The position numbers and the translations under genes are program-made. From the UHGV virus genome UHGV-0044850: a DNA stretch of 10,997 bases; one strand, 5' to 3'. Below the pieces are notes generated by a model. That model did no database searches. It worked only from the letters and a program-made list of their open reading frames with translations, and was not told the origin of the DNA. The stretch is from a virus. This document shows, piece by piece, positions 3,880 to 10,400 of this stretch (position 1 is the stretch's first letter; each line of letters starts with the position of its first letter).

Positions 3880-4012
3880 TTTTTGGGACTCCTGGCTGAT
3901 TAAGTATGTCGATAAGGCGTTTCCATCCGTCACGTAATTTACGGGTGATTCGTTCAAGTAAAGATTCGGAAGGGCAGCCAGCAACAGGCCACCCTGCAAT
4001 GGCATATTGCAT
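3848..4012 (-). CDS. cIII: cIII (FtsH/HflB protease inhibitor, stabilises cII)
   Basis: Hand translation of the minus strand gives [54 protein letters not shown] (54 aa), matching lambda cIII. ATG at 4012 with GGAG about 8 nt upstream. Below the ORF-track size cutoff. Confidence 0.9.
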   Translation of the reverse strand: MQYAIAGWPVAGCPSESLLERITRKLRDGWKRLIDILNQPGVPKNGSNNYGYPD

Positions 4013-4084
4013 GGTGTGCTCCTTATTTATACATAACGAAAAACGCCTCGAGTGAAGCGTAATTGGTATGCGGTAACGCCGCGC

Positions 4085-4453
4085 TCAGGCGGCCTTGATA
4101 GTCATATCATCTGAATCAAATATTCCTGATGTATCGATATCGGTAATTCTTATTCCTTCACTACCATCCATTGGAGGCCATCCTTCCTGACCATTTCCAT
4201 CATTCCAGTCGAACTCACACACAACACCATATGCATTTAAGTCGCTTGAAATTGCTATAAGCAGAGCATGTTGCGCCAGCATGATTAATACAGCATTTAA
4301 TACAGAGCCGTGTTTATTGAGTCGGTATTCAGAGTCTGACCAGAAATTATTAATCTGGTGAAGTTTTTCCTCTGTCATTACGTCATGGTCAATTTCAATT
4401 TCTATTGATGCTTTCCAGTCGTAATCAATGATGTATTTTTTGATGTTTGACAT
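4085..4453 (-). CDS. ea10: Ea10-like early protein (function unknown)
   Basis: 122-aa ORF with ATG start. Same length as lambda ea10 and the same 72-nt spacing from cIII. I do not recall the lambda Ea10 sequence, so identity is by position and size only. Confidence 0.6.
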   Translation of the reverse strand: MSNIKKYIIDYDWKASIEIEIDHDVMTEEKLHQINNFWSDSEYRLNKHGSVLNAVLIMLAQHALLIAISSDLNAYGVVCEFDWNDGNGQEGWPPMDGSEGIRITDIDTSGIFDSDDMTIKAA

Positions 4454-4609: not shown

Positions 4610-5787
<1,178 letters not shown>

Positions 5788-5823
5788 TATGGCACCTGTG
5801 TTGTTCTGAGGTGAGCATATCAC

Positions 5824-6302: not shown

Positions 6303-6884
6303 ATGAACAACTCATGGTGGCAGGAACTAATGCATTTTTTCCTGCAAGGAATGACACTTAAACAGTTGATTCATATGCTAATCATCCTGATCATATTGAT
6401 TATTGTTATGCCGGTAAGCGTAAAAGAATGGATAAACCTGCATAGTCCAGAAATCCTTCCTCATTACTGGATGTATTACATCCTGTTGTTTTGCGTTAGC
6501 TATGTGCTTAACGGCGTTGTTAATTCCGCTTATCACGCTGTGACTGAAAGAATTGAGGTATTCGCTGCTCAGAAGCGCAAATCTAAAGAAGAAAAATATG
6601 TGCAAGATTTGTTTGATTCGTTAACTCTTGGAGAAAGAGCGTATTTGGCATTCGCTGTAGCCGCTAATAACCAGCTACAAACGGAAAAGGGCGCTCATGA
6701 ATCAATTTCATTGCTCAAAAAAGGACTCCTCGTTCGAAGGCCTCCTGCTGTTGGATATCCTGATACCGACCGTTTCGTTATCCCTGAAAGCTATAGACAT
6801 GAGTGCTACATTAGGTTTGCCGGGAAGGCAGACAGCCTTATGGATGAACTTATCGCTCAGGATAAGCATGGCAAAAACAAGTAA
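6303..6884 (+). CDS. sieB: SieB-like superinfection exclusion membrane protein
   Basis: 193-aa ORF on the opposite strand to the pL operon. Two strongly hydrophobic segments (LIHMLIILIILIIVMPV and YWMYYILLFCVSYVLNGVV). Position between ral/orf28 and N matches lambda sieB; sequence identity to lambda SieB is recalled only loosely. Confidence 0.65.
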   Translation: MNNSWWQELMHFFLQGMTLKQLIHMLIILIILIIVMPVSVKEWINLHSPEILPHYWMYYILLFCVSYVLNGVVNSAYHAVTERIEVFAAQKRKSKEEKYVQDLFDSLTLGERAYLAFAVAANNQLQTEKGAHESISLLKKGLLVRRPPAVGYPDTDRFVIPESYRHECYIRFAGKADSLMDELIAQDKHGKNK

Positions 6885-6900
6885 TTAGCAAATGAATTTA

Positions 6901-7173
6901 TCATCTCGCCGTCAGTTGTTTTGATTTCCGGTAGCCTGCCGCGTAAAGAGCTACGTTCGGAAGACAAGTTGAACCTTCATATTTTCTGGTCAACGTTGTC
7001 AGAGTTATCACTTCTGCTCTCATTGCTGGTTTGAGCTTGCATTGCAAGACCACTCGTGAAGGGGTTGGCCTGTGTAGCTTGTCGGAGCTGATCGCCTCCT
7101 GACTTTGCAGATTTGCGCGACGAGCTCTACGGCGAGAAGCTGCGGTGCCTTTAAATTCTGTTTTTCTGGACAT
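6901..7173 (-). CDS. N: N-like transcription antiterminator (non-lambda specificity)
   Basis: 90 aa from the ATG at 7173, which has GGGAGGAA RBS about 5 nt upstream; the track ORF begins at an upstream ATG (7245) with no RBS. Arginine-rich motif near the N-terminus (GTAASRRRARRANLQ). Sits immediately downstream of the nutL-like element. Sequence differs from lambda N. Confidence 0.7.
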   Translation of the reverse strand: MSRKTEFKGTAASRRRARRANLQSQEAISSDKLHRPTPSRVVLQCKLKPAMRAEVITLTTLTRKYEGSTCLPNVALYAAGYRKSKQLTAR

Positions 7174-7271
7174 GGATTCCTCCCGAATAAACTTTGGCGA
7201 TGCAATCTCGAAGCTCCTCCTGAGACGGTTGCTTCGGCATTGCATCCCACAGCTTATGTGGTTGGGTGATC

Positions 7272-7316
7272 TGGCTTTTCAGCCACGTAGTCGAGAGTCG
7301 ACGTTGTTTAAAGAGC
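7272..7316 (-). promoter_or_regulatory. nutL-like site: boxA, spacer hairpin, boxB
   Basis: Minus-strand RNA GCUCUUUAAACAACGUCGACUCUCGACUACGUGGCUGAAAAGCCA. The boxA-like GCUCUUUAAA is followed by hairpin GUCGA-CUC-UCGAC and then boxB-like UGGC-UGAAAA-GCCA. Closely parallels the element after cro (9952..9997). Confidence 0.55.
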
Positions 7317-7362
7317 CTGCCAGTCTGTTCCATTTGGCTTCCAGCGTCCTGCTGACGGTTAA

Positions 7363-7391
7363 ATAGTACGATATGTACTTTACAAGATCAA
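7363..7391 (-). promoter_or_regulatory. candidate pL promoter with overlapping operator (oL)
   Basis: Minus strand: -35 TTGATC (7391..7386), 17-nt spacer, -10 TACTAT (7368..7363). The spacer holds the 11-mer AAAGTACATAT also found in the pR spacer. 15-bp palindrome AGTACGATATGTACT at 7365..7379. Confidence 0.4.
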
Positions 7392-7578
7392 TACAATTTG
7401 TTGTAAGTTGGCGTGGTTTTTTATAACGCTTTGTATTTAATAGTGTTGTTTTTTAGCGTGGATGTATTGCCTCGGCGATGTAAGGAGAGATCAGAATTGC
7501 GTGGTTTAGTGGGTTGCATCTATTTATTTTTCAATAAATATAATTGGTTATGTGTTTTTAGGTGGGCGAACGTGAGGC

Positions 7579-7604
7579 AAAGAAAACCCGGCGCTGAGGC
7601 CGGG
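7579..7604 (-). terminator. intrinsic terminator after the two-gene cassette
   Basis: Minus strand CCCGGCCUCAGCGCCGGG (6-bp GC stem) followed by UUUUCUUU, starting 6 nt after the stop of the 250-aa gene. Confidence 0.55.
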
Positions 7605-7609
7605 TTGTA

Positions 7610-8362
7610 TTATGCTGCAAGTCTCTTAACCCAAGTCTCTCTTTTGGAGAATGGTAGAACTTGGCTTGATTCATGGAAGAGTAAGGAGAGTTGTTGCATT
7701 TGATCACCAATTGCTTCGCTGTCTATAACAACAAATCTGTTGTTATACTCCTCACTTGAAGCTTTAAGATCAATTAGTTTCCCAAGCAATGAGTAAGCAC
7801 TATTCCAGCTTCCTCCGTGTTTCACGCTTGATGTAAAAACGTATTTAGGTATGTCGGTTTTTATTGTTACAGGGACGGTAATTTGATGTCCACTCAAGCC
7901 ATATACGTTTTCACGAAGAGAAAGTGCGTCTCTAAGCTCTGTGTGATATAGATAATCAATAACCATACTTTCAAACTTTTCAGCTTGAACTGGCTGATAC
8001 CAGTCTAACGACAAAGTTGATGCGAGTATACCAGCTCTAATTATGTTCGATGTAATCGCACCGACATCCTTTTCTGTTGCCCAAGCAATGATTTCTCCTC
8101 GAGCATTGAGTTCTGCGCCTTCTTTAAGCAGTAATTGTCGTATCTCATCAAGTCGTTTTTTGGTAAGCGAGATCCCTCTTGCCTCCATATTCATTAAGGC
8201 ATCGCATCTGTCACTAACTAAATACCTACCATTGACTTCACGGATAAAGGCACCGACATGCTCTCCATCATCACAGTAAGTGAATGGACTGATAATTCTC
8301 AAGGTCTTGCCTATTGGATGGCATTCGAAACCTAGTTGTGAGATCACTGTTGAGCACATCAT
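7610..8362 (-). CDS. hypothetical protein, second gene of cassette in the rex position (250 aa)
   Basis: ATG at 8362 overlaps the TGA stop of the upstream gene (ATGA). No transmembrane segment obvious. No similarity to RexA/RexB or other proteins I can recall. AT-rich coding sequence. Confidence 0.7.
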   Translation of the reverse strand: MMCSTVISQLGFECHPIGKTLRIISPFTYCDDGEHVGAFIREVNGRYLVSDRCDALMNMEARGISLTKKRLDEIRQLLLKEGAELNARGEIIAWATEKDVGAITSNIIRAGILASTLSLDWYQPVQAEKFESMVIDYLYHTELRDALSLRENVYGLSGHQITVPVTIKTDIPKYVFTSSVKHGGSWNSAYSLLGKLIDLKASSEEYNNRFVVIDSEAIGDQMQQLSLLFHESSQVLPFSKRETWVKRLAA

Positions 8363-8916
8363 ATTCCAAACCCCATTTGCCCCGACTCATCTTCAAGCGG
8401 TAAAGGTATTCTCCCAGAGTAAGTTATGTTCAGATGTTTACAGAAGTAATTCCAATACCCTACCAGGTCATCTGGGTTTATGTCATCTTCGATTGGAAAC
8501 GCTATTCTATCACTATAGTATCCAGCTTCTTCATAGTATACATGGTAGTGAGCACCGTAAATGATATCTTGGTACTTCGGATGATCGACCTTGTAACTAT
8601 TCGTGTGTTTGTCAAAGTGATAGGTATCTACCGCGAAAACCCTCTTGTTATGATAGAAAGCAATAATATTTATTTTAGGGTAAGAAATCGGGTCATCAGG
8701 TTCTGAATCCTGATCTGGTTTCCATTTCAGTTCAAACTTTAGCCCTTGTATAGGTATACAATCCTCATCCAAGGGGATGATATGGGCTTGTAGCCACATA
8801 TCAGAGCGACTTGGTTTCTGTTTCCATTTAACGCCAGAAAAGTTAACTATTTTTTTACAATAAAGTACTTTATCAACTTCTACTTGGCTTGGCTGATAAT
8901 CATCTATTTTTGCCAA
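8359..8916 (-). CDS. hypothetical protein, first gene of cassette in the rex position (185 aa if TTG start)
   Basis: The frame opens right after a TAA stop. The first start-like codon is TTG at 8916 with AGGGCGG 7-13 nt upstream; the first in-frame ATG (8799) has no RBS. Begins 39 nt downstream of the cI stop on the same strand. His/Tyr/Asp-rich (HYHVYYEEAGYY). Confidence 0.6.
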   Translation of the reverse strand: MAKIDDYQPSQVEVDKVLYCKKIVNFSGVKWKQKPSRSDMWLQAHIIPLDEDCIPIQGLKFELKWKPDQDSEPDDPISYPKINIIAFYHNKRVFAVDTYHFDKHTNSYKVDHPKYQDIIYGAHYHVYYEEAGYYSDRIAFPIEDDINPDDLVGYWNYFCKHLNITYSGRIPLPLEDESGQMGFGI

Positions 8917-8955
8917 TGTTTACCGCCCTGTAAATTGTAGATAAAAGTGGTTTCA

Positions 8956-9609
8956 TCACCCAAACGTCTCTTCAGGCCATTGGCTGGCGATAACTTTCCC
9001 CACAACGGAACAACTCTCATTGCATGGGATCATTGGGTATTGTGGGTTTAGTGGCTGTAGAAACACCTGACCGCTATCCCTGATCAGTTTCTTGAAGGTA
9101 AATTCATCACCACCAAGTCTGGCTATGCAGAAATCGCCGGGCTCAACAGCTTGCTCAGGGTCAACCAGAATTAACATCCCGTCAGGAAAGCTGGGTTTGG
9201 AACCTGTTGGTGCGGTCATTGAGTTACCTTCAACCTCAAGCCAGAATGCAGAGTCACTGGCTTTTTTGGTTGTGCTTACCAATCTCTCCGCATCGCCTTT
9301 GGTAAAGGTTCTGAGTTCTGGAGAGAACATCCCAGCCTGAACATGAGAAAAAACAGGGTACTCATATTGTTTTTTAACTGGGGCCGATGAGTATTCGCCA
9401 ACAGGTGAAAATGTCCCGTCGTGGTTGAATGATATGTTATCAATACCAAGGTATTTAAACACCACACCAATATCACTAAGAGATGGATGACGAGATCCGC
9501 GCAACCAGTGTCCAATCCCACCCTGCGTCATACCTAGCTCTTCGGCTAACTTCTCTTGAGTTATGCCGAGCTCTTTCATTCTGGATCTAGCCAGTTCATA
9601 CCATTTCAT
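8956..9609 (-). CDS. cI: CI-type prophage repressor: HTH N-terminal domain plus lambda-type LexA-like (S24) C-terminal domain
   Basis: C-terminal about 130 aa ([28 protein letters not shown]...[12 protein letters not shown]) match lambda cI, including the VQAG cleavage region and the GNSM serine and FKK lysine motifs. N-terminal domain ([38 protein letters not shown]) is a different helix-turn-helix. Start taken as the ATG at 9609 with AAGGA 7 nt upstream; in-frame ATGs at 9615 and 9651 and a TTG at 9657 are alternatives. Confidence 0.85.
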
Positions 9610-9726
9610 TTTCATGTCCTTATTATTACGCTCTGTACTGGAACCATCCATGCACAATGTGTATTTTTACTTGTATTCGCAAAGTACATATTGTATTTTT
9701 TTATTCGTGTTTACTATGGAGGGCAT
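9610..9726. promoter_or_regulatory. oR region with divergent pR/pRM (operator sites not resolved)
   Basis: 117-bp AT-rich intergenic region between divergent cI and cro. Candidate pR: -35 TTGTAT (9671..9676), 17-nt spacer, -10 TATTTT (9694..9699). The spacer contains AAAGTACATAT (9681..9691), the same 11-mer as in the pL spacer. Repeated TGTATT motifs. Confidence 0.45.
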
Positions 9727-9942
9727 ATGAGCAACCTACGAAAATATCGAGAGTCACTGAATATCTCTCAAACAACACTTGCTAAGGCAGTTGGATGCAC
9801 ACAGGGAGCTATCGGACATTGGGAATCTGGTCGTCGCTTCCCAGACCTTAAAACATGCCGTGCTCTTGTTGCGTGCCTAAACAAGTTAGGCGCAAAAGTC
9901 AGTCTTGATGACGTGTTCCCGCCGGAACACAAAGCCGCTTAA
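9727..9942 (+). CDS. cro: Cro-type repressor (helical HTH type, not lambda Cro)
   Basis: 71 aa (MSNLRKYRESLNISQTTLAKAVGCTQGAIGHWESGRRFPDLKTCRALVACLNKLGAKVSLDDVFPPEHKAA). ATG at 9727 with GGAGGG RBS. HTH segment paralogous to the cI N-terminal domain. Confidence 0.85.
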   Translation: MSNLRKYRESLNISQTTLAKAVGCTQGAIGHWESGRRFPDLKTCRALVACLNKLGAKVSLDDVFPPEHKAA

Positions 9943-9951
9943 TAAGCGGAT

Positions 9952-9997
9952 CCGCTCTTTGTAACAACGGACATTCGTCCTACGTCGCTGAAAAGCG
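9952..9997 (+). promoter_or_regulatory. nutR-like site: boxA, spacer hairpin, boxB
   Basis: CGCTCTTTGTAACAACG (boxA-like), then hairpin GGAC-ATTC-GTCC (9968..9979), TACGT, then boxB-like TCGC-TGAAAA-GCGA (9984..9997). Lies just after the cro stop. Confidence 0.55.
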
Positions 9998-10027
9998 AGT
10001 TCCAAGATATCTGACCAACTAAGGCCA

Positions 10028-10045
10028 TATGCGTTTCCACGCATA
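10028..10045 (+). terminator. hairpin between nutR and cII (possible tR1-associated structure)
   Basis: TATGCGT-TTCC-ACGCATA, a 7-bp stem, followed by CCTTTCAAC, which is only weakly U-rich. Lambda tR1 is Rho-dependent, so this is tentative. Confidence 0.25.
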
Positions 10046-10083
10046 CCTTTCAACTAACTATTCACTATTGGAAATCTTAAGAA

Positions 10084-10380
10084 ATGGAAAGAACAAGTTA
10101 CAGCAAACTATCACAGCGTGACGTTGATCGCGCAGAAACAGATTTACTTATCAATCTGTCAGCTATTACCCAGCGCGGTCTGGCAAAGATGATTGGCTGT
10201 CATGAATCGAAGATAAGCAGAACGGACTGGAGATTTATTGCTTCGGTCTTGTGTGCTTTCGGAATGGCATCAGACATCAGTCCGATTAGCAGGGCTTTTA
10301 AGTATGCGCTTGATGGACTCACCAATAAAAAACGCCCGGCGGCAACCGAGCGTTCTGAACAAATCCAGATGGAATTCTGA
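10084..10380 (+). CDS. cII: CII transcriptional activator (chimeric: lambda-type C-terminus)
   Basis: 98-aa ORF. C-terminal TNKKRPAATERSEQIQMEF matches lambda cII. Central HTH region (RGLAKMIGCHESKISRTDWRF) and N-terminus differ from lambda. Confidence 0.85.
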   Translation: MERTSYSKLSQRDVDRAETDLLINLSAITQRGLAKMIGCHESKISRTDWRFIASVLCAFGMASDISPISRAFKYALDGLTNKKRPAATERSEQIQMEF

Positions 10381-10400
10381 GGTCATTACTGGATCAATCC
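10324..10400 (-). ncRNA. oop: oop antisense RNA (overlaps the cII 3' end)
   Basis: Minus strand matches my recollection of lambda oop: ...CUGAGGUCAUUACUGGAUC...GAUUUGUUCAGAACGCUCGGUUGCCGCCGGGCGUUUUUUAUU, ending in a stem plus U6 terminator (+ strand 10325..10352). 5' end is approximate. Confidence 0.6.

What the first reader, a model, noticed from the sequence alone, without database searches (positions are those of the whole stretch)
7272..7316. nutL and nutR both carry two hairpins, each with compensatory stem changes
nutL (minus strand) reads GCUCUUUAAACAACG-[GUCGA CUC UCGAC]-UACGU-[UGGC UGAAAA GCCA]. nutR (9952..9997) reads CGCUCUUUGUAACAACG-[GGAC AUUC GUCC]-UACGU-[UCGC UGAAAA GCGA]. The boxA-like sequence, CAACG, UACGU and the UGAAAA loop are conserved. 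Both stems differ in sequence but preserve pairing: G to C in the second stem, and a wholly different first stem. That covariation argues both hairpins are functional RNA structures. Lambda nut sites have a single boxB hairpin, so the extra hairpin between boxA and boxB may reflect the specificity of this N-like protein or an additional factor binding site.
Basis: partly seen in the sequence, partly recalled or inferred. Interest (0 to 1): 0.5.

Follow-up and report, generated by a model that had tools for sequence, protein, structure and literature searches.

The report
Known-type two-hairpin phage nut sites
The two sites are the N-antitermination signals (nutL and nutR) of a lambda-like E. 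coli phage, and the extra hairpin between boxA and boxB is real and conserved, but it is the same spacer stem-loop already described and mutated in Shiga-toxin phage H-19B, so this is a confirmation and not a discovery.

Summary
nutL (7272-7317, minus strand) and nutR (9953-9998, plus strand) each read boxA, CAAC, hairpin 1, UACG, hairpin 2. They lie just after pL and just after cro, next to a Pfam N_peptide gene.

Across 42 distinct homologous sites, hairpin 1 is 99.5% paired. Four of its five pairs change on both sides. Stem sequences fall into at least six unrelated families, and loops run 3-6 nt. Hairpin 2 is boxB. It is better read as a 5-bp stem with a GNRA tetraloop (GAAA) than as 4 bp with a UGAAAA loop.

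The feature is not new. The nutR spacer hairpin GGACAUUCGUCC is identical to the one in H-19B, 933W and HK97 nutR. A published paper describes H-19B nutR as having "two hairpins" and probed it with RNase T1 and RNase H. Neely and Friedman (2000) analysed the H-19B spacer dyad by compensatory mutation and called it the "reducer" (contents recalled from memory).

The same hairpin-1 families occur with two different classes of N arginine-rich motif and boxB, so hairpin 1 is not an N-specificity determinant.

Verdict: a new member of a known kind, of low interest. One small new point: no natural GAAA-type nut site without the hairpin was found.

The parts
7304..7317 (-). nutL boxA, rrn-like (GGCUCUUUAAACAA)
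   Evidence: Sequence. It matches the lambda and P22 boxA core CGCUCUU(U)A read. It carries the extra U typical of rrn boxA (PMC2724277).
7290..7302 (-). nutL spacer hairpin (hairpin 1): GUCGA-CUC-UCGAC, 5 bp
   Evidence: -3.5 kcal/mol alone; pair probabilities 0.74-0.98 in context. Family covariation.
7286..7289 (-). conserved single-stranded linker UACG between hairpin 1 and boxB
   Evidence: It is also invariant in loci sampled through the N protein.
7272..7285 (-). nutL boxB: UGGCU-GAAA-AGCCA, 5-bp stem with a GNRA tetraloop; inferred binding site of the N arginine-rich motif
9953..9967 (+). nutR boxA, rrn-like (CGCUCUUUGUAACAA)
   Evidence: Alignment with H-19B, HK97 and POCJ13 nutR.
9969..9980 (+). 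nutR spacer hairpin (hairpin 1): GGAC-AUUC-GUCC, 4 bp; identical to the H-19B, 933W and HK97 nutR spacer hairpin
   Evidence: The oligo RS663, 'antisense to nutR spacer of H-19B', covers this exact sequence.
9981..9984 (+). conserved linker UACG
9985..9998 (+). nutR boxB: UCGCU-GAAA-AGCGA. It differs from H-19B and HK97 boxB (UCGCU-GACAA-AGCGA) by one C
6901..7173 (-). N antiterminator gene, 90 aa from ATG 7173 (Shine-Dalgarno GGGAGG). Arginine-rich motif SRRRARRANLQSQ
   Evidence: Pfam N_peptide at 9.7e-33. Alignment. Start site and the POCJ13 annotation.
7344..7355 (-). conserved start-of-pL-transcript motif UCAGCAGGACGC (inferred), about 30 nt upstream of nutL boxA
   Evidence: Sequence. 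The motif is conserved in H-19B, g341c, POCJ13 and Tatumella leaders. Its role as the pL transcript start is inferred by analogy with lambda and P22.

Best explanation
These are the leftward and rightward N-utilisation (nut) sites of a lambdoid phage. The window is 100% identical to Escherichia phages ev207 and ev017. The sites belong to the H-19B/933W/HK97 architectural class: boxA, CAAC, spacer stem-loop, UACG, boxB.

Hairpin 2 is boxB. It has a 5-bp stem capped by a GNRA tetraloop and is bound by the arginine-rich N-terminus of the phage N protein (inferred from homology and from the co-variation of motif and loop).

Hairpin 1 is a sequence-independent structural element of the spacer. Only its ability to pair is conserved. 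Folding 10-16 nt into a helix keeps the single-stranded boxA/CAAC and UACG/boxB segments a fixed short distance apart. This lets the N, NusA and (NusB-S10) complex assemble on the RNA and load onto RNA polymerase. This is the 'reducer' model proposed for H-19B, and it is inferred here, not shown.

Shown here: position, sequence, pairing, covariation, and identity of the nutR hairpin to the experimentally probed H-19B one. Inferred: N binding, involvement of Nus factors, and the distance-keeping role.
For: Identity and context:
- The window is 100% identical to phages ev207 and ev017.
- The adjacent gene is Pfam N_peptide. It is 99% identical to the Nil2, 2851 and 1717 N proteins and 40% identical to H-19B N.
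- The region has cI, cro and cII homologues in lambda order.
- nutL lies after the pL leader motif and nutR lies directly after the cro stop codon.

Structure:
- In 42 distinct sites (alignment A3), hairpin 1 is 99.5% paired.
- Four of its five pairs change on both sides, with 2-4 pair types each and one G-U. Versions with the partner slid by 1-3 columns are 19-54% paired, and 0 of 500 shuffles reach the observed covariation score.
- The 30 distinct inserts fall into at least six stem families: GUCGA, GGAC, GGCC, GAUUC, GGUGA and GAAGA. Twenty-nine have an end-anchored stem of 4-6 bp and one has 3 bp (GGC-CCCC-GCC). Shuffled inserts reach 4 bp 2% of the time.
- Insert length varies from 10 to 16 nt while the flanks stay fixed.
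- Pattern matches inside coding regions have no hairpin.
- No hairpin-less natural site of this boxB type turned up in a complete scan of the viral collection.

boxB and N:
- The motif class RRRxRRAxLQ goes with the GAAA loop and RRRERLKAKALANG goes with GACAA. Among the N-linked sites there is one exception, phage Oslo nutL.
- A compensatory closing pair (C-G in Tatumella, U-G in Oslo) and GCAA in POCJ13 support the GNRA tetraloop reading.

Prior experiments:
[quoted passage not shown] N with NusA and NusG protects the spacer and boxB.
- Their spacer oligo covers CACAAUGGACAUUCGUCCUACG, which includes the window's nutR hairpin.
Against: - No experiment exists for this phage's N protein or nut sites.
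- ViennaRNA's minimum-free-energy fold of the isolated nut RNA keeps hairpin 1 but pairs boxA with the 3' half of boxB. boxB pair probability is 0.03 in nutL and 0.33 in nutR. boxB formation must therefore rely on co-transcriptional folding or on N binding.
- The 64-nt segments do not fold better than shuffles (z about -1).
- As I recall it, Neely and Friedman found that deleting the H-19B dyad had little effect. That fits a passive spacer but sits awkwardly with the strict natural conservation found here.
- Most sites were collected with DNA patterns that fix the flanks and the boxB loop, so the invariance of those parts is partly built in. Many sequences are also closely related, so cell counts overstate the number of independent events.
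Confidence: 0.85

Rival explanations
1. Hairpin 1 is a docking site for a protein that recognises its shape and not its sequence, for example the NusA S1/KH domains, or N itself through a second contact. On this view it is an active part of the antitermination complex and not a passive distance-keeper.
For: In H-19B nutR the spacer is protected from RNase H and RNase T1 by N with NusA and NusG (PMC3526286). NusA binds the nut spacer in lambda (PMC2724277). The hairpin is kept in every natural site examined.
Against: Stem sequence, stem length (3-6 bp), loop length (3-6 nt) and loop sequence all vary freely. This leaves little for a protein to read. The protected G residues may lie in the conserved single-stranded flanks. 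From memory, deleting the H-19B dyad had little effect (Neely and Friedman 2000).
Confidence: 0.12
2. Hairpin 1 mainly manages RNA folding or access by Rho. It could guide co-transcriptional folding so that boxA and boxB do not mispair. It could also mask part of the spacer that otherwise serves as a Rho loading (rut) site for tR1 and tL1.
For: boxA (C/G)GCUCUUU is complementary to the boxB loop plus 3' arm GAAAAGC(G/C), and the computed minimum-free-energy fold uses that pairing. Rho alone protects the H-19B nutR spacer (PMC3526286).
Against: In the alternative fold hairpin 1 sits at the tip and would help the mispairing, not prevent it. The first base of boxA does not co-vary with boxB across the family: 38 sites are compatible and 16 are not, and the compatible ones are close relatives. 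H-19B-type nutL sites keep the hairpin although they have no boxA.
Confidence: 0.08
3. Hairpin 1 determines which N protein the site responds to.
For: It is absent from lambda and P22 nut sites and present with all N proteins of this Pfam N_peptide clade that were examined.
Against: The identical nutR hairpin occurs with N proteins of both motif and boxB classes. GAUUC/GAAUC stems occur with both classes. Within one N class, four different stem families are used. The boxB loop tracks the N motif class closely (one exception, phage Oslo nutL), and hairpin 1 does not.
Confidence: 0.03
4. The dyads are chance palindromes or act at the DNA level, for example as an operator, or as a terminator for antisense transcription. 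The nutL dyad followed by GTTGTTT was flagged as terminator-like on the plus strand.
For: The terminator-like scan flagged 7290-7302 on the plus strand. Stems of 4-5 bp are common by chance anywhere in a genome.
Against: The dyad always sits in the same frame between conserved flanks, on the transcribed strand, in both operons. Compensated stems fall into at least six families. One variant has a G-U pair that would be a C-A mismatch on the other strand. The stem is short and the antisense T-run is poor.
Confidence: 0.02

Closest known systems
H-19B / 933W / HK97 nut sites with the spacer stem-loop ('reducer'; Neely and Friedman, Mol Microbiol 2000, PMID 11123680; Sen laboratory, PMC3526286)
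   Same: The layout is the same: (boxA), CAA(C/U)G, dyad, CUACG, boxB, in both nutL and nutR. The window's nutR hairpin GGACAUUCGUCC and the whole nutR-tR1 module are nearly identical to H-19B and HK97. The N proteins are homologous.
   Different: N is only 37-40% identical. It has a different, more lambda-like arginine-rich motif (RRRARRANLQ against RRRERLKAKALANG). The boxB loop is a GAAA tetraloop and not the P22-like GACAA pentaloop. The nutL stem is a different family (GUCGA against GAUUC). Both window sites carry a good rrn-like boxA, whereas H-19B nutL has none and H-19B nutR has a degenerate one.
Phage lambda nutL and nutR
   Same: Same genomic positions, the same boxA core and a boxB hairpin with a GA-rich GNRA-type loop. 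The N arginine-rich motif is similar (RRRxRRA). The C-terminal 24 residues of N are 92-96% identical to lambda-type N proteins.
   Different: The lambda spacer is 8-9 unstructured nt with no hairpin. The lambda boxB loop is a pentaloop (GAAAA or GAAGA). Here the distance from the boxA core to boxB is 24 nt, of which 12-13 nt are folded. This N has no Trp at the position of lambda N Trp18 (alignment against lambda N from memory).
Phage P22 nutL and nutR
   Same: boxA CGCUCUUUA carries the extra U. The P22 nutL boxB GCGCUGACAAAGCGC equals the H-19B-type boxB.
   Different: The spacer is 8-10 unstructured nt. P22 gp24 was not picked up as a relative of this N by tblastn.
E. coli rrn antitermination boxA (UGCUCUUUAACAA)
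   Same: The window's boxA sequences (GCUCUUUAAACAA and GCUCUUUGUAACAA) resemble the extended rrn boxA, including the extra U that lets rrn boxA bind NusA without a spacer (PMC2724277).
   Different: In rrn leaders boxB precedes boxA and no N protein is involved (PMC8632103).

Membership tests
H-19B-type nut site (boxA, spacer stem-loop, boxB) | Located in the early transcripts: between pL and N (nutL) and between cro and cII (nutR) | tested here: met
   Gene identities from Pfam. nutL is 99 nt upstream of the N ATG and nutR starts 11 nt after the cro stop codon. The tImm-like terminator and the pL leader motif are in place.
H-19B-type nut site (boxA, spacer stem-loop, boxB) | Dyad symmetry (stem-loop) in the spacer between boxA and boxB, in both nut sites | tested here: met
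   The flanks CAACG and CUACG are the same as in H-19B nutL, and CAAUG and CUACG as in H-19B nutR.
H-19B-type nut site (boxA, spacer stem-loop, boxB) | Pairing, not sequence, of the dyad is what matters (compensatory changes tolerated) | tested here: met
   Natural covariation: 99.5% of cells paired, four of five pairs changed on both sides, at least six stem families. The mutational version of this test was done on H-19B by Neely and Friedman (recalled from memory) and not on this phage.
H-19B-type nut site (boxA, spacer stem-loop, boxB) | boxB hairpin immediately 3' of the UACG linker, matched to the arginine-rich motif of a homologous N protein | tested here: met
   boxB is present when sites are anchored only on hairpin 1 and its flanks. 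Motif class and loop class co-vary with one exception, phage Oslo nutL. N homology is shown. The loop class differs from H-19B (GAAA against GACAA).
H-19B-type nut site (boxA, spacer stem-loop, boxB) | N-dependent antitermination with reduced host-factor needs (independent of NusB and S10, boxA dispensable) | not testable with these tools
   This needs genetics. The good rrn-like boxA in both window sites hints that this phage may still use NusB and S10, unlike H-19B (inference).
Canonical lambda-type nut site | Short (8-9 nt) unstructured spacer between boxA and boxB | tested here: not met
   Lambda spacers are AAAAUUAA and CACAUUCCA. Here the spacer is 24 nt and includes a 12-13-nt hairpin.
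Canonical lambda-type nut site | boxB with a 5-nt GNRA-like pentaloop (GAAAA or GAAGA) | tested here: not met
   The loop is GAAA, closed by U-A. The closing pair is compensated to C-G in L216.
Rfam-curated RNA family | Match to any Rfam covariance model at the nut sites | tested here: not met
   No Rfam hit at either site, even at E up to 10. Only the Lambda_thermo (cIII) element at 3967-4025 passes its threshold.

The most novel reading that the evidence does not exclude
The spacer hairpin may be more than a dispensable 'reducer'. It is kept in every natural site examined, through at least six independently compensated stem families, and no hairpin-less variant was found. This suggests a selected function that reporter assays missed, such as shape-specific docking of NusA, exclusion of Rho, or kinetic guidance of boxB folding against the competing boxA:boxB pairing. 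In this clade the hairpin is combined with a true GNRA-tetraloop boxB and a Trp-less, lambda-like arginine-rich motif. That combination would be a third, minimal mode of N-boxB recognition. It lies one nucleotide from the P22/H-19B pentaloop and one from the lambda pentaloop.
Probability: 0.25. Interest if true: 0.4.

Novelty: new member of a known kind. Interest (0 to 1): 0.18.

Why it matters
The finding matters little as a discovery. The two-hairpin nut architecture has been in the literature since 2000, and the nutR hairpin here is identical in sequence to the one already probed in H-19B.

It is useful as annotation. It places nutL and nutR precisely in a widespread group of E. coli and Shigella prophages, including the Stx2 phages 1717, 2851 and Nil2, whose N protein is 99% identical to this one.

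It also gives comparative support for the idea that the spacer needs structure and not sequence.

Two modest leads come out of the work:
- Natural sites never lose the hairpin, although laboratory deletion was reportedly tolerated.
- N specificity in this family appears to switch through a single-nucleotide change in the boxB loop (GACAA to GAAA), matched to the class of arginine-rich motif.

Tried and rejected
- Rfam at E up to 10 has no nut or boxB family. The only real hit is the cIII thermoregulator.
- Neely and Friedman 2000 is not held in the paper library. Weisberg and Gottesman 1999 is not held either. Searches for 'reducer' and for Nil2 nut sites found nothing relevant. I therefore cite the 2000 paper's contents from memory. 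Its existence and title come from reference lists.
- The search for related loci with the N alignment returned the same close relatives from viral contigs and only 12 loci from genome contigs. Diversity therefore came mostly from DNA-pattern scans.
- A scan for stems starting with C gave 10 matches, none of them nut sites. They served as a negative control.
- Two scans looked for hairpin-less sites. The first was swamped by chance matches. The second, more specific scan was complete and found none. Its four matches with a genuine boxB turned out to have a GGAC-AACCU-GUCC hairpin with CAAC inside the loop.
- I considered an alternative conserved pairing of boxA with the 3' half of boxB, because nutL has GGCU...AGCC and nutR has CGCU...AGCG. 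I rejected it as a conserved structure because the first boxA base does not track boxB across the family.
- I excluded five distinct flank-matching sequences without hairpins (nine occurrences). All lie inside stop-free frames of 163-393 aa and have aberrant 'boxB' sequences.
- I did not build a covariance model, because anchored parsing plus MAFFT already aligned the helices cleanly.

Full report
**What the window is**

The region 6800-10400 is 100% identical to Escherichia phages ev207 and ev017, and about 96% identical in parts to the Stx2 phages 1717, 2851 and Nil2. Pfam identifies these genes:
- an N antiterminator, 6901-7245 as an ORF, N_peptide at E = 1e-32;
- a cI-type repressor, 8956-9657 on the minus strand;
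- a Cro-like helix-turn-helix protein ending at 9942;
- cII, 10084-10380.

The real N start is ATG 7173, preceded by GGGAGG. This gives a 90-aa protein, as annotated in phage POCJ13. One is between the pL leader and N. The other is directly after cro.

**Checking the observation**

The sequences are as described.
- nutL, minus strand: GGCUCUUUAAACAAC [GUCGA CUC UCGAC] UACG [UGGCU GAAA AGCCA], 7317-7272.
- nutR, plus strand: CGCUCUUUGUAACAAC [GGAC AUUC GUCC] UACG [UCGCU GAAA AGCGA], 9953-9998.

The frame CAACG-N8-20-CUACG occurs only at these two places in the window. 0.1 matches are expected by chance. End-anchored stems of this length in random inserts have a joint probability of about 1.6e-4.

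Folding energy alone is not significant, with z of about -1. The isolated RNAs have a slightly more stable computed alternative fold in which boxA pairs with the 3' half of boxB. Hairpin 1 is predicted with probability 0.74-0.98 in either fold.

**Comparative evidence**

I collected related sites in three ways:
- through the N protein;
- through DNA patterns that fix only the flanks and the boxB loop;
- by parsing every locus between the anchors CAAY and UACG.

Thirty distinct inserts were found. Twenty-nine form an end-anchored stem of 4-6 bp and one forms a 3-bp stem (GGC-CCCC-GCC). Shuffled inserts reach 4 bp 2% of the time. The stems fall into at least six unrelated families: GUCGA/UCGAC, GGAC/GUCC, GGCC/GGCC, GAUUC/GAAUC, GGUGA/UCACC and GAAGA/UCUUC. 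Loops run 3-6 nt with many different sequences. One variant has a G-U pair (GGGCAUUCGUCC).

On the 42-sequence alignment A3, hairpin 1 is 99.5% paired. Four of its five pairs change on both sides. Registers slid by 1-3 columns give 19-54% pairing, and no shuffle reaches the observed covariation score.

The boxB helix in that count is partly circular, because I had required boxB complementarity when picking sites. When sites are instead anchored only on hairpin 1 and its flanks, every nut site still has a boxB hairpin; the one sequence without one, in L109, lies inside a long coding frame.

Flank matches that lack the hairpin all lie inside long coding frames and are chance hits.

A complete scan of the viral collection for GAAA-type sites with 0-7 nt in place of the hairpin found none.

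**Refining hairpin 2**

boxB is better described as a 5-bp stem closed by U-A with a GAAA tetraloop.
- POCJ13 nutL has GCAA, which is still GNRA.
- A Tatumella prophage has UGGCC GAAA GGCCA, which compensates the closing pair.
- Phage Oslo nutR has a U-G closing pair.

The loop class tracks the N arginine-rich motif. RRRxRRAxLQ goes with GAAA, and RRRERLKAKALANG goes with the P22-like GACAA. The one exception among the N-linked sites is phage Oslo nutL. The window's nutR module is otherwise almost the same DNA as the H-19B and HK97 nutR-tR1 module. It differs in boxB by a single C.

**What hairpin 1 is**

H-19B, 933W, HK97, Salmonella phages g341c and Oslo, and Shigella phage POCJ13 all share the layout CAA(C/U)G, dyad, CUACG, boxB. 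H-19B, 933W and HK97 nutR carry exactly the window's nutR hairpin, GGACAUUCGUCC.

Lambda and P22 have 8-10 unstructured nt instead.

The architecture is published.
- PMC3526286 states that H-19B nutR has "two hairpins". It shows that N with NusA and NusG, and Rho alone, protect the spacer.
- Its oligo 'antisense to nutR spacer of H-19B' is the reverse complement of CACAAUGGACAUUCGUCCUACG.
- The original analysis is Neely and Friedman 2000. The title and PMID are confirmed, but the paper is not held.

From memory, that paper reported several things. H-19B nut sites have spacer dyads that other nut sites lack. Mutating one arm inactivates the site, and compensatory changes restore it. Deleting the dyad has little effect. 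The stem-loop, named the 'reducer', was proposed to bring the flanking elements together. H-19B N also needs NusA but not NusB or S10, and it does not need boxA.

The hairpin does not follow N specificity. The same nutR hairpin, and the GAUUC family, occur with both classes of N and boxB. Four stem families occur within the window's own N class.

Free replacement of stem and loop argues against sequence-specific recognition.

Variable insert length (10-16 nt) between fixed flanks fits an element whose job is to keep the ends together.

Shape-specific docking (for example of NusA), or a role in folding or in Rho access, cannot be excluded. Strict natural retention of the hairpin is a mild argument that it does more than the reported deletion result suggests.

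**Differences from H-19B**

- N is 40% identical to H-19B N.
- The arginine-rich motif is lambda-like but has no Trp at the position of lambda N Trp18 (alignment against lambda N from memory).
- boxB is a true tetraloop.
- Both sites carry an rrn-like boxA with the extra U (GCUCUUUAAACAA and GCUCUUUGUAACAA). According to PMC2724277, that extra U lets rrn boxA bind NusA without a spacer.

Whether this phage needs NusB and S10 is unknown.

**Verdict**

The RNA-structure interpretation is supported by strong covariation. The specificity idea is not supported. The feature is a new member of a known, experimentally characterised kind, and interest is low.

Noticed in passing
window 7610-8362 (-) and 8359-8916 (-): Two overlapping genes (DUF1828, 250 aa; DUF6978-like, 185 aa) occupy the rexA/rexB slot between cI and a tImm-like terminator (7606..7585, minus strand). 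They hit the PADLOC candidate defence system PDC-M24, with M24B at 4.7e-10 and M24A at 4.8e-4. This is probably a prophage-expressed anti-phage module.
   Followed up: partly
window 4640-5823 (-): An IS3-family insertion sequence sits inside the pL early-left operon. OrfA carries HTH_Tnp_1 (5485-5823) and orfB carries the rve integrase core (4640-5458). Its ends, and its effect on N-antiterminated transcription of the downstream kil, cIII and recombination genes, were not examined.
   Followed up: no
window 7165-7352 (-), especially 7200-7214 / 7231-7245: The N leader downstream of nutL forms a long, very stable stem. The whole leader folds at -68.3 kcal/mol with z = -4.05, and it contains a 15-nt inverted repeat. 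It resembles the RNase III-processed N-leader structure of lambda (recalled from memory). The first ATG of the 114-aa ORF (7245) lies in this stem. The real N start is ATG 7173.
   Followed up: partly
window 7272-7317 (-) and 9953-9998 (+): boxA (C/G)GCUCUUU is complementary to the boxB loop plus 3' arm GAAAAGC(G/C). The computed minimum-free-energy fold of free nut RNA pairs them, with hairpin 1 at the tip. The apparent G/C co-variation between nutL and nutR is not upheld across the family.
   Followed up: yes
window 9985-9998 (+) compared with L001, L201: The window's nutR-tR1 module is nearly identical to that of H-19B and HK97, except for one C in the boxB loop (GACAA against GAAA). The loop class co-varies with the class of N arginine-rich motif, with one exception (phage Oslo nutL). 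This suggests that a one-nucleotide change switches N specificity.
   Followed up: partly
window 6901-6975 (-): The C-terminal 24 residues of this N protein are 92-96% identical to lambda-type N proteins, while the rest is unrelated to lambda N at the tblastn level. The N gene is mosaic and shares the C-terminal, RNAP-binding end.
   Followed up: no
window 6303-6884 (+): A SieB superinfection-exclusion gene lies on the opposite strand immediately downstream of N (Pfam SieB, 9e-22). The arrangement matches P22.
   Followed up: no
window 3967-4025 (-): A lambda cIII thermoregulator RNA element is present (Rfam RF01804, 88.5 bits, E = 5e-21).
   Followed up: no
L001 3832-3856, L201, L202, L203 (H-19B-type nutL): H-19B, 933W, HK97 and g341c nutL sites have no boxA. 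In its place they have another conserved hairpin (UCACC-AGGRY-GGUGA) just upstream of CAACG.
   Followed up: no
L204 (Salmonella phage Oslo), nutL about 4366-4395 and nutR: Within one phage, the nutL boxB (GCUCCGUCAACGAGC) is a different type from the nutR boxB (UCGCUGACAAGGCGA), although both follow the same spacer-hairpin frame.
   Followed up: no
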